DNA of 20,272 bases, taken from Armatimonadota bacterium (GTDB lineage Bacteria > Armatimonadota > Armatimonadia > Armatimonadales > Armatimonadaceae). Numbering within the stretch: position 1 is the stretch's first letter; every line of letters begins with the position of its first letter. Below, one piece after another: positions 18,687 through 20,272 of the stretch. The stretch covers positions 1-20,272 of the forward strand of contig JAYUUO010000310.1 in assembly GCA_043754515.1 (NCBI GenBank), read 5' to 3'. The position numbers and the translations under genes are program-made. The notes under the pieces were generated by a model, which saw only the letters and a program-made list of their open reading frames with translations, was not told the DNA's origin and searched no databases.

Positions 18687-19421
18687 TCATGCATAGGACG
18701 CGGATGTTTTCCCGACGACGACGCTCTGTTCGGTGGCGTTGGTGAGTCGGAACTCGGCGGCGACCTCCGACTTGTCTATCCGGCTGATCGCGCCGACGTT
18801 GAAAACGCCGAACCCGTTGTCCGCCTTCAGGAGGGAAGCACCGGGGTCTATTGACAATCGGACTACTTGACGCGGTCGCTCGGTCTTCGCGACCGGCGTC
18901 GGCGGGGACGTGTTCCGCGCACCGAATTCCTTCGGATCTGGCGCGGTCTTTCGTAGTCCGAGTGCGTACTATACCCATGCCTCGCGCTCCGCCCCGCGCC
19001 AGTTCCCCTGCGCGATAACGCGGTCGTCTTTGTCAACCAGAACGAAGCAAGGCACGGTGCGGACGTGGTACTTTTTCGCAAGGTCCGTGCGCCACCCTTT
19101 GCCGTCGAAGATCAGCGTGTCGGCGATCCCCTGATCCTTCCGCGCCCTGAGAACGTCTTCGCGCCGGCTTTCGAGGTCTCCCGAAACATATCTTATATCT
19201 AAGCCTTTGTCCGAATAGTTATTACCCAAATCGGTGACGCTCCGGGTATCCCTGTTGCAGGAAGAACACCGTATAGACCGGAAGTTGAGCAGCCGTACTT
19301 TTCTTGGGGGCCGTTCGTTTTGGCGAACAGACGAAACGAACACCAGTGGTGGATTAGCAGGATTATGTGAAGGTGAGAACAAAACACCATATGTGTGCAA
19401 GCTACTGATCATCGTAATCAT
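18687..19421 (-). pseudogene. TlpA-like thioredoxin fused to a DUF1573-like domain, interrupted by stop codons
   Basis: KVRLLNFRSIRCSSC...FDGKGW...KYHVRTVPCFVLVDKD. The same frame continues past the TAG at 18969-18971 into FNVGAISRIDKSEVAAEFRLTNATEQSVVVGKTSASYA* (stop at 18687-18689). Confidence 0.65.
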
Positions 19422-19795
19422 CTACATGTAACTTATCGATGAACTCGCTGAAAGACGACGCGACCACACAATCTATATACCCGCTTGAGGAGTATAGAAT
19501 GTGGACGGGATGACCCGAGCCTTCGTCACTCAGGTAGAGCAAATCCCCCCCGCCGTTCTGGGCGAAAGCTACAGCAGTAACACCCAAGAAGTCAGTCAAC
19601 TGCATTGTGTACACCCAGACACTGGAACGCTCATCTTCGTCCGCCGTTAATGCGAAGAAGTTACTGACGGACCCCTGCCCCAACCGCCCATCGGACAGCT
19701 GGTACTCGAAGACGCGGTACTGTGTGTGGCCTCCGTTGGAGTGCTTCAAGAATCGAACGTAGTCATCCGGCAGCCTGAGATCGTATTTATTTTGG

Positions 19796-20101
19796 GTAAC
19801 TATTCAGCCCCATTTTACACAATATATGGGGTCTGCAACTGCAGAAACACAATATGTAGATCGCCGAATCGCATTTTTACAGTCTACCATAGTGACAAAG
19901 ACCAACCTAAACGATCATCTGCGAAGTCGGCGATTGCGAGCATCAGGAGACTACCATAGTGACAAAGACCAACCTAAACGCGTAACAAGCACCGCGATAT
20001 TCTCACAAATCACCTCTACCATAGTGACAAAGACCAACCTAAACCCCATATGTAGTAGATCGCAACGGTTACACCTCACTACATATGGGCTGAATAGTTA
20101 C
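19796..20101. mobile_element. MITE-like non-autonomous element (306 bp) carrying a CRISPR-like mini-array
   Basis: Perfect 15-bp TIRs GTAACTATTCAGCCC (19796-19810) and GGGCTGAATAGTTAC (20087-20101). 8-bp direct repeat TATTTTGG immediately outside both (19788-19795, 20102-20109). The empty site restores a gene. Confidence 0.92.
19884..20044. CRISPR. CRISPR-like mini-array: 3 repeats, 2 spacers, no cas genes in the window; orientation unknown
   Basis: Identical 29-bp repeat CTACCATAGTGACAAAGACCAACCTAAAC at 19884-19912, 19951-19979 and 20016-20044. Unique spacers of 38 bp (19913-19950) and 36 bp (19980-20015). Confidence 0.8.
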
Positions 20102-20194
20102 TATTTTGGAAGGACTCTATCAGTGAATCGGACACCGAGGAGACGTTTTTATAGTGGTGAAGTTCTAGCTCGGTTAAGTGCGTGTGCCAAAATA

Positions 20195-20272
20195 CATGAC
20201 ATTTAGGATTTACCCGTCGCCGGTGTTTTTCAGAGGAAGCCCCATCAAATGACGGTGGCTCTAAATGTCATG
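20195..20272. repeat. 12-bp perfect inverted repeat closing a 78-bp hairpin at the window edge
   Basis: CATGACATTTAG (20195-20206) and CTAAATGTCATG (20261-20272), with inner CCGTC/GACGG pairing. Confidence 0.55.

What the first reader, a model, noticed from the sequence alone, without database searches (positions are those of the whole stretch)
19788..20109. A mobile CRISPR mini-array: 306-bp MITE with TIRs and 8-bp TSD whose cargo is a repeat-spacer array
Seen: TATTTTGG | GTAACTATTCAGCCC ... 3 x 29-bp identical repeats with 38- and 36-bp unique spacers ... GGGCTGAATAGTTAC | TATTTTGG, with no credible gene inside. Established: TIR plus TSD is the signature of DDE-transposase (or casposase) mobilisation, and mini-arrays are known from phages and Tn7-like elements. 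I do not know of a described IS-type MITE consisting essentially of an array. Inference: a non-autonomous guide-RNA cassette that spreads by a trans-acting transposase and either borrows host Cas proteins or derives from an autonomous element pairing a transposase or novel effector with this array. Spacer acquisition by the element's own integrase is also possible.
Basis: partly seen in the sequence, partly recalled or inferred. Interest (0 to 1): 0.93.

Follow-up and report, generated by a model that had tools for sequence, protein, structure and literature searches.

The report
Off-target CRISPR spacers inside a MITE
A small jumping DNA element, present in several copies in this bacterium, has in one copy been mistaken for a CRISPR array by the cell's own spacer-inserting enzymes and picked up two pieces of a phage, a natural snapshot of a new array arising on a mobile element rather than a purpose-built guide cassette.

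Summary
The anatomy is exactly as described. The element is an IS66 (ISBst12-type) MITE with at least 6 insertions in this genome, but the 4 other copies whose interior can be read are 174 bp, with one 29-bp site and no spacer. Only this copy carries spacers. Both spacers match phage-like contigs that the host type I-B array also targets. They have the same PAM (5'-CCG, 2 of 2; host 7 of 8) and the same lengths, and all 4 mismatches are synonymous. The repeat itself does not match the I-B repeat and was found in no other array. Other isolated duplication-plus-36-nt units occur in the genome, one a perfect self-match with CCG. Best reading: the host Cas1-Cas2-Cas4 inserted two spacers off target into a resident MITE copy (a neo-CRISPR), probably silent. 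There is no evidence that the array form has transposed or is expressed. Earlier, unchecked notes of this scan report off-target arrays in other genomes. What is distinctive here is an acceptor site inside a recently mobile element, with phage-derived spacers.

The parts
19788..19795 (.). left 8-bp target-site duplication (TATTTTGG)
   Evidence: sequence; other copies have their own 8-bp TSDs
19796..19810 (+). left 15-bp terminal inverted repeat, IS66/ISBst12 type
   Evidence: first 12-13 nt shared with the ends of IS66 transposase elements in G000
19811..19883 (+). left body of the MITE; one base (19879) differs from the spacer-less copies
19884..19912 (-). repeat 1 (29 bp), copy of the MITE's single acceptor site; leader-distal if polarity is read from the PAM
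19913..19950 (-). spacer 1, 38 nt; matches a phage-like replication-initiator gene on C172 (3 synonymous mismatches), PAM CCG in register
19951..19979 (-). repeat 2 (29 bp)
19980..20015 (-). spacer 2, 36 nt; matches an ORF on C260 (1 synonymous mismatch), PAM CCG in register; a host I-B spacer targets the same strand about 34 bp away
20016..20044 (-). repeat 3 (29 bp); its right edge is the leader-side integration point by PAM polarity (GGG|GTTT on the minus strand)
20045..20089 (.). hairpin with a 12-bp outer stem, beginning exactly at the edge of repeat 3; part of the MITE's right end, standing where a leader would be
   Evidence: DNA fold
20087..20101 (-). right 15-bp terminal inverted repeat
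20102..20109 (.). right 8-bp target-site duplication

Best explanation
A 174-bp non-autonomous IS66 (ISBst12-group) MITE is moved by an IS66 transposase in trans and makes 8-bp TSDs (copies and empty sites shown; the active transposase is inferred). It contains one 29-bp stretch that the host's type I-B Cas1-Cas2-Cas4 can use as a repeat. After this copy had inserted, the integrase twice put in a PAM-trimmed phage prespacer there, each time duplicating the 29 bp, and so built repeat-spacer-repeat-spacer-repeat (products shown; enzyme inferred from PAM and spacer length). Polarity puts the 'leader' at the MITE's right end, at the foot of a hairpin. The insertions probably happened during adaptation against the phage that the main array was also recording (inferred). 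The array is most likely a silent by-product, a natural neo-CRISPR: its repeat is not the host repeat, no promoter is predicted, and only this one copy has spacers.
For: (1) All 4 other right ends in G000 read left body, one repeat, right end, with no spacer. A complete 174-bp metagenome copy (L026) equals the window copy minus two units, apart from 1 base. The skip-132 form is the only joint in 4 of 4 runs. (2) Spacers of 38 and 36 nt fall in the host I-B range (79 spacers, mode 37-38), not the I-E range (32-33). (3) CGG lies directly 3' of the target (5'-CCG PAM) for 2 of 2 MITE spacers and for 7 of the 8 host I-B spacers that have in-genome targets, out of 79. Background CGG frequency is about 0.03 per position, so about 1e-3 for both (my arithmetic). 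(4) The targets are on the same contigs, C172 and C260; C172 carries a serine integrase, a replication initiator and a methylase. (5) 4 of 4 mismatches are synonymous third-position changes, so the spacers come from a variant of that phage; this includes the terminal base that fixes the duplication at 29 bp. (6) A complete cas6-5-8-7-3-4-1b-2 locus lies beside a 71-repeat array. (7) Of 8 isolated repeat-unique-repeat units found genome-wide at periods 45-110, 7 have inserts of 34-39 nt. C88 has a 31-bp duplication and a 36-nt perfect copy of an adenosine deaminase gene with CCG in register; C259 has an uninserted paralogue on C62. (8) In vitro, Pyrococcus Cas1-Cas2 integrates at non-CRISPR sites bordered by G or C about 30 bp apart, prefers G1-T2-T3 and uses a site only 43% like the repeat (PMC6698737, passages). 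The MITE site begins GTTT on one strand and C on the other.
Against: The duplication is 29 bp, the host repeat 30. In the orientation fixed by the PAM the site is no more like the I-B repeat than shuffles (9-10 of 29, P 0.55-0.74); the weak likeness (13 of 29, P about 0.06) is in the opposite orientation, so why this site was chosen twice is not explained. Both MITE spacers are phage-derived, whereas the one other off-target spacer with a known source is self-derived, which leaves room for selection on function. Spacer 1 differs from the resident phage at PAM-proximal positions 1 and 4, as escape variants would. The other copies lie at contig ends of a collapsed assembly, and 1 left and 1 right end have no partner, so an unseen spacer-bearing copy is not excluded. 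The genome is 92.7% complete, so a further CRISPR system could be missing. 4 of the 5 other candidate units have no identified source. All IS66 transposases in the assembly are broken.
Confidence: 0.8

Rival explanations
1. Same origin, but the array is functional: the MITE copy is transcribed from its right end, host Cas6 or another RNase makes usable crRNAs, and the anti-phage spacers were kept by selection. The MITE family then seeds new working arrays.
For: 2 of 2 spacers hit the phage that the host array fights, with correct PAM. Two rounds took place at one site. The minus-strand repeat ends in ATGG-containing letters like the host repeat's 3' end. Spacer 1 has seed-position mismatches to the resident phage.
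Against: The repeat is unrelated to the host repeat in this orientation and has no predicted structure. No sigma-70 promoter or terminator match in 19650-20272 (consensus scan only). A tolerated perfect self-targeting unit at C88 suggests such off-target units are not active. The seed mismatches are synonymous, as ordinary phage divergence would be.
Confidence: 0.12
2. The MITE captured a leader and first repeat of an unknown CRISPR system (with CCG PAM) and is a dedicated mobile mini-array or solitary-repeat element.
For: TIR and repeat co-occur in every readable copy. The same end sequence is laid in runs of 3 studies. The site took two spacers with one polarity.
Against: The repeat occurs in no other array: 0 of 400 other genomes of the phylum at up to 3 mismatches, 0 hits in GTDB genome contigs and viral contigs; of 3 metagenome hits 1 is a spacer-less MITE and 2 are 20-nt matches without TIRs. 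A related MITE end in the same-genus genome G002 has no such repeat next to its hairpin in the 98 bases that can be read. Viral mini-arrays carry repeats identical or very similar to host repeats (PMC8616872, passages); this one does not.
Confidence: 0.06
3. Assembly artefact, or tandem duplication and recombination without Cas1.
For: The genome is a fragmented assembly; no contig covering the repeat-spacer junctions was listed in the 4 runs laid.
Against: The spacers differ from the in-genome phage by synonymous changes, end exactly at the PAM and have I-B lengths. Misjoins or recombination would not produce this twice.
Confidence: 0.02

Closest known systems
Neo-CRISPR loci from off-target Cas1-Cas2 spacer integration (Nivala, Shipman and Church 2018; paper not held; known from citing passages in 10.1101/148544 and PMC6698737, and from recall)
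   Same: A non-CRISPR site is duplicated at about repeat length around a spacer with the host's size and PAM; several such sites occur in one genome.
   Different: Natural, type I-B with Cas4 rather than E. coli type I-E with up-regulated acquisition; two rounds at one site; the site lies inside a multi-copy, recently mobile MITE; the spacers are phage-derived.
Pyrococcus furiosus Cas1-Cas2 integration at non-CRISPR sites in vitro (PMC6698737, abstract and passages)
   Same: Full-site integration between G/C borders about 30 bp apart, preference for GTT at the border, low overall identity to the repeat.
   Different: In vitro on plasmids and without PAM orientation; here the products are in vivo, PAM-oriented, and 29 bp are duplicated.
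IS66 family, ISBst12 group (ISDge4; PMC12898284, passages) and its MITEs
   Same: TIR of the same type (11 of 14 positions match one ISDge4 end, my count), 8-bp direct repeat; single-ORF relatives of about 1.5 kb in the same genome.
   Different: Non-autonomous, 174 bp; one copy is expanded by spacers.
Viral CRISPR mini-arrays and solitary repeat units/Racrs (PMC8616872 and PMC10651486, passages)
   Same: A small repeat-spacer unit, or a single repeat-like site, on a mobile element without cas genes; spacers target a virus.
   Different: Those mimic the host repeat and often follow a promoter; this repeat does not resemble the host's, no promoter is predicted, and the carrier is an IS-derived MITE.
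IS elements and MITEs inserted into CRISPR arrays (PMC4852346, passages)
   Same: Physical association of a MITE with an array.
   Different: The reverse arrangement: there the MITE splits an existing array, here an array grew inside the MITE.

Membership tests
IS66 (ISBst12-group) MITE | Terminal inverted repeats of the family type | tested here: met
   15-bp perfect TIR; 12-13 nt shared with the ends of an IS66 transposase element at C150; like the ISDge4 TIR
IS66 (ISBst12-group) MITE | 8-bp target-site duplication differing between copies | tested here: met
   4 paired copies with 4 different 8-bp TSDs; 2 ends unpaired
IS66 (ISBst12-group) MITE | Short, no transposase, multi-copy, polymorphic insertion sites | tested here: met
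   174 bp; 5 left and 5 right ends in G000; 3 junctions in L026 at sites that are empty in G000
IS66 (ISBst12-group) MITE | Intact cognate transposase in the same genome | tested here: inconclusive
   The 4 IS66 matches, at 3 loci, are broken or partial; further IS66-type ends lie at contig ends (C98, C244, C294), so a collapsed multi-copy element is missing from the assembly
Neo-CRISPR (off-target Cas1-Cas2 integration) | The site pre-exists as a single non-CRISPR sequence | tested here: met
   4 of 4 other right ends and L026 have one copy; skip-132 joint in 4 of 4 runs
Neo-CRISPR (off-target Cas1-Cas2 integration) | Duplication of about the cognate repeat length | tested here: met
   29 bp against 30 bp for the host I-B repeat; 31 bp at C88
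Neo-CRISPR (off-target Cas1-Cas2 integration) | Inserts have the spacer length and PAM of a resident adaptation module | tested here: met
   36 and 38 nt, CCG in 2 of 2; host 7 of 8; cas4-cas1b-cas2 present
Neo-CRISPR (off-target Cas1-Cas2 integration) | Integration at the site by the host enzyme, shown directly | not testable with these tools
   needs an in vitro or in vivo acquisition assay
Canonical array of the host type I-B system | Repeat matches the repeat of the cas-linked array | tested here: not met
   9-10 of 29 identical in PAM orientation, no better than shuffles
Canonical array of the host type I-B system | Leader with promoter | tested here: inconclusive
   57-bp right end, unlike the C61 and C77 leaders by eye; no sigma-70 match (consensus scan only)
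Canonical array of the host type I-B system | Processed crRNAs and interference | not testable with these tools
   needs small-RNA-seq and an interference assay
Viral mini-array / solitary repeat unit (Racr) | Repeat identical or very similar to a host CRISPR repeat | tested here: not met
   aligned to all three repeat types in G000 without a good match; shuffle test for I-B
Viral mini-array / solitary repeat unit (Racr) | Carried by a virus or provirus | tested here: not met
   carrier is a MITE; 0 hits in viral contigs and in INPHARED phages
CAST or casposon | Encodes Tns proteins or a stand-alone Cas1 between its ends | tested here: not met
   no credible gene inside; Cas1 matches in G000 only at C61 and C138, both beside arrays; same-TIR long elements encode IS66 transposase

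The most novel reading that the evidence does not exclude
This IS66 MITE family is a mobile acceptor for the host CRISPR integrase: every new insertion deposits a site where an array can nucleate, a spacer-bearing copy keeps intact ends and can itself be transposed, and the array yields working anti-phage crRNAs. That would be a transposon-driven route for the birth and spread of CRISPR arrays with a new repeat.
Probability: 0.12. Interest if true: 0.82.

Novelty: new variant of a known kind. Interest (0 to 1): 0.5.

Why it matters
How new arrays with new repeats arise is open; off-target integration was proposed as a source, mainly from laboratory E. coli. This is an unusually complete natural case. 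The ancestral single-site allele exists in several copies; the derived two-spacer allele, the phage targets with PAM, and the responsible cas locus are all in one genome. Because the site lies between intact transposon ends, a newborn array could in principle be copied around the genome, which makes 'MITEs as seeds of CRISPR arrays' directly testable. It is also a caution: a TIR-flanked mini-array need not be a dedicated guide cassette. The phenomenon itself is known, and unchecked notes of this scan report it in other genomes, which limits the surprise.

Tried and rejected
Rfam, E up to 5, on 19400-20272: 0 matches.
Repeat 20-mer: 0 in viral contigs, 0 in GTDB genome contigs; 3 in metagenomes, of which 2 (L025, L027) lack TIRs and a second repeat and are taken as chance. 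Full repeat at up to 3 mismatches: 0 of 400 other genomes of the phylum.
Whole element against 60 relatives: only short end matches in G002. Right-end 24-mer in genome contigs: 2 loci, neither with the repeat in what could be read. TIR at up to 1 mismatch: 12 of 60 relatives; of the 7 non-G000 loci inspected, the 5 G012 loci read like IS66 left ends, and L046 and L048 gave no element. No parent element carrying the repeat was found. L065 was fetched but not analysed.
Spacer cores in viral contigs: 0 and 0. MITE against plasmids and phages: no match.
Sequencing runs: no RNA holder listed, so nothing is known on expression. In one search no contig was listed over the repeat-spacer junctions and no loose end at a repeat edge among the 19 of 24 rows shown (29 of 65 pieces shown). 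The depth over the spacers in X1 fits pieces of the phage targets (my arithmetic on the bins). A filter drops records, so holes prove nothing.
Promoter and terminator scan: 0 and 0.
Rejected as the integrase: type I-E (spacers 32-33 nt); the system of the C112 array (no cas gene among 13 neighbouring ORFs scanned).
Rejected candidate units: C214 (plain tandem duplication); C35 (52-nt insert).
A 30-bp duplication was considered and rejected: it needs a mutated repeat and two PAM slips, whereas 29 bp needs only a synonymous phage variant.
C260 proteins had no PHROG or Pfam match; calling that contig phage-like rests on its being targeted by host spacers and on gene layout by eye.
Literature: searches listed no paper whose title or abstract start describes an array inside a MITE; most hits were seen as listings only and the library lacks most subscription papers. 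Passages of 10.1101/2024.01.18.576133, PMC7054753, PMC13769266 and 10.1101/108332 gave background only. No supplements were read.

Full report
Observation. The element lies in an intergenic, lower-GC end of a 20-kb contig of a 5.13-Mb, 313-contig, 92.7% complete genome. The organism is probably Armatimonadota, inferred from the title of the only genome-contig hit to the element's end. Rfam has no match.

The element is an IS66-type MITE. G000 holds 5 left and 5 right ends. Apart from the window copy, 3 pair by their own 8-bp TSDs (C244/C134, C37/C257, C80/C67) and 2 ends stay unpaired, so there are at least 6 insertions. The first 12-13 nt of the TIR are shared with a 1.5-kb element at C150 that encodes IS66 transposase fragments. 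The ISBst12-group element ISDge4 has a similar TIR, an 8-bp direct repeat and one ORF (PMC12898284, passages). A metagenome contig (L026) has 3 MITE junctions at sites that are empty in G000, which shows recent mobility; that contig may be chimeric through the repeat. All 4 IS66 transposase matches in the assembly are broken or partial. Further IS66-type ends at contig ends suggest a collapsed multi-copy helper, which is inferred and not shown.

The array is the exception. The 4 other right ends read left body, one repeat, right end, with no spacer. L026 holds a complete 174-bp copy identical to the window copy minus two repeat-spacer units, except for 1 base. In Logan contigs of 4 runs from 3 studies the only joint is the 132-bp skip. 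Run X1 has both flank junctions of this very locus, which suggests the site was occupied by the short form before spacers arrived; the joining contig is a collapsed multi-copy node, so this is indirect. Nothing shows the 306-bp form at a second site.

The spacers were made by the host type I-B system. C61 carries cas6, cas5, cas8, cas7, cas3, cas4, cas1b and cas2 (PGING-type models for cas5, cas7 and cas8) beside a 71-repeat array. Its 79 spacers, with C77 and C302, have a mode of 37-38 nt; the I-E spacers are 32-33 nt. 8 of the 79 have targets in the assembly at up to 5 mismatches, all on C172, C260 and C87, and 7 of the 8 have CGG directly 3' (5'-CCG in transcription orientation). Both MITE spacers hit the same contigs, C172 (3 mismatches) and C260 (1 mismatch), each with CGG in register, against a background of about 0.03 per position. 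C172 encodes a serine integrase, a replication initiator and a DNA methylase. All 4 mismatches are synonymous third-codon changes, so the spacers came from a variant of this phage and have not decayed. One of them is the last base of spacer 1, which settles the duplication at 29 bp.

The repeat is not a CRISPR repeat by descent, as far as searched. In the orientation given by the PAM it matches the I-B repeat no better than shuffles (P 0.55-0.74); in the opposite orientation 13 of 29 match (P about 0.06). It has no predicted structure. It was found in 0 of 400 other genomes of the phylum, in no GTDB or viral contig, and in metagenomes only within the MITE or as chance 20-mers. A related MITE end in G002 lacks it within the 98 readable bases. 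No promoter or terminator is predicted.

The host integrase has missed elsewhere. A genome-wide scan for isolated repeat-unique-repeat units at periods 45-110 gave 8 units, 7 with inserts of 34-39 nt: the 2 in the MITE, plus C88, C191, C259, C8 and C138. C88 is a 31-bp duplication around a 36-nt perfect copy of the host adenosine deaminase gene, with CCG in register. C259 has an uninserted paralogue on C62. The other inserts have no source in the assembly and remain candidates. The MITE and C88 both have GGG|GTT at the leader-side junction (n = 2), and in the MITE that junction sits at the foot of a hairpin. In vitro, Pyrococcus Cas1-Cas2 integrates at non-CRISPR sites with G or C borders about 30 bp apart, prefers G1-T2-T3, and accepts a site 43% like the repeat (PMC6698737). 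A 30-bp duplication here would have needed a T border, which may explain 29 (inference).

Mechanism. Shown: a mobile MITE with a single-site ancestor; two inserts with I-B length and PAM; a resident I-B adaptation module; similar units elsewhere. Inferred: the enzyme, the order (spacer 1 first if the right end acts as leader), a link to primed adaptation against the phage, and silence of the array. Confidence 0.8. Against it: why this site was hit twice is unexplained; both spacers are anti-phage; spacer 1 differs in the seed; other copies are seen through a collapsed assembly; expression is untested. A functional array (0.12) and a captured leader-repeat of an unknown system (0.06) remain possible.

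Comparison and novelty. It works like the neo-CRISPR loci of Nivala et al. 2018 (not held; seen through citing passages). It fails membership of viral mini-arrays and Racrs, whose repeats mimic the host's, and of CASTs and casposons. MITEs inserted into arrays are described (PMC4852346), which is the reverse arrangement. My searches (mostly listings, limited library) showed no array grown inside a MITE. Earlier unchecked notes of this scan report natural off-target arrays in other genomes, some in dispersed repeats or dead IS elements; my reading was recorded before I saw them and I did not test them. Verdict: a new variant of a known kind, interest 0.5. The distinctive points are the recently mobile carrier, the phage-derived spacers and the preserved ancestral allele.

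Noticed in passing
window 20175-20272 (runs off the contig): A second small repeated element of about 115 bp with short inverted ends, also on C1, C54, C137, C202, C163 and C42, mostly at contig ends; probably another MITE family, inserted 65 bp from the first.
   Followed up: partly
G000:C88:11110-11207 (L038): 31-bp duplication around a 36-nt perfect copy of the host adenosine deaminase gene (C28:10312-10347) with CCG PAM: a self-targeting off-target unit in an intergenic region.
   Followed up: yes
G000:C259:2347-2433, C191:25887-25984, C8:8966-9073, C138:15515-15603: Further candidate off-target units (duplications of 25, 31, 37 and 25 bp; inserts of 34-39 nt). C259 has an uninserted paralogue on C62; C191 sits in the outer arm of a long multi-copy palindrome. 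No source found for the inserts.
   Followed up: partly
G000:C149:1849-1878 (L040): A solitary, 4-mismatch copy of the type I-B repeat in an A+T-rich stretch with no cas gene found in 3 neighbouring ORFs; could be a regulatory or Racr-like unit.
   Followed up: no
G000:C112:26023-26350 (L008): Orphan 5-repeat array with a 37-bp repeat; no cas gene among 13 neighbouring ORFs scanned.
   Followed up: partly
L004:1374-2639 (G000:C61): Cas1b carries an acidic, low-complexity insertion of roughly 90 residues that splits the profile match in two; whether it affects fidelity is unknown.
   Followed up: no
G000:C172, C260, C87: Phage-like contigs in the same assembly are hit by host I-B spacers, 3 with no mismatch and a correct PAM: a co-binned phage, a sub-population prophage, or inhibited interference.
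   Followed up: partly
L013 and L015 (G002): Related MITE-like ends sharing 24-25 nt of the right end; L013 has its own hairpin but no 29-bp site next to it.
   Followed up: partly
window 19402-19749 (-): SMI1/KNR4-like ORF (weak Pfam match) just upstream of the MITE, which lies about 40 bp from its predicted start.
   Followed up: no
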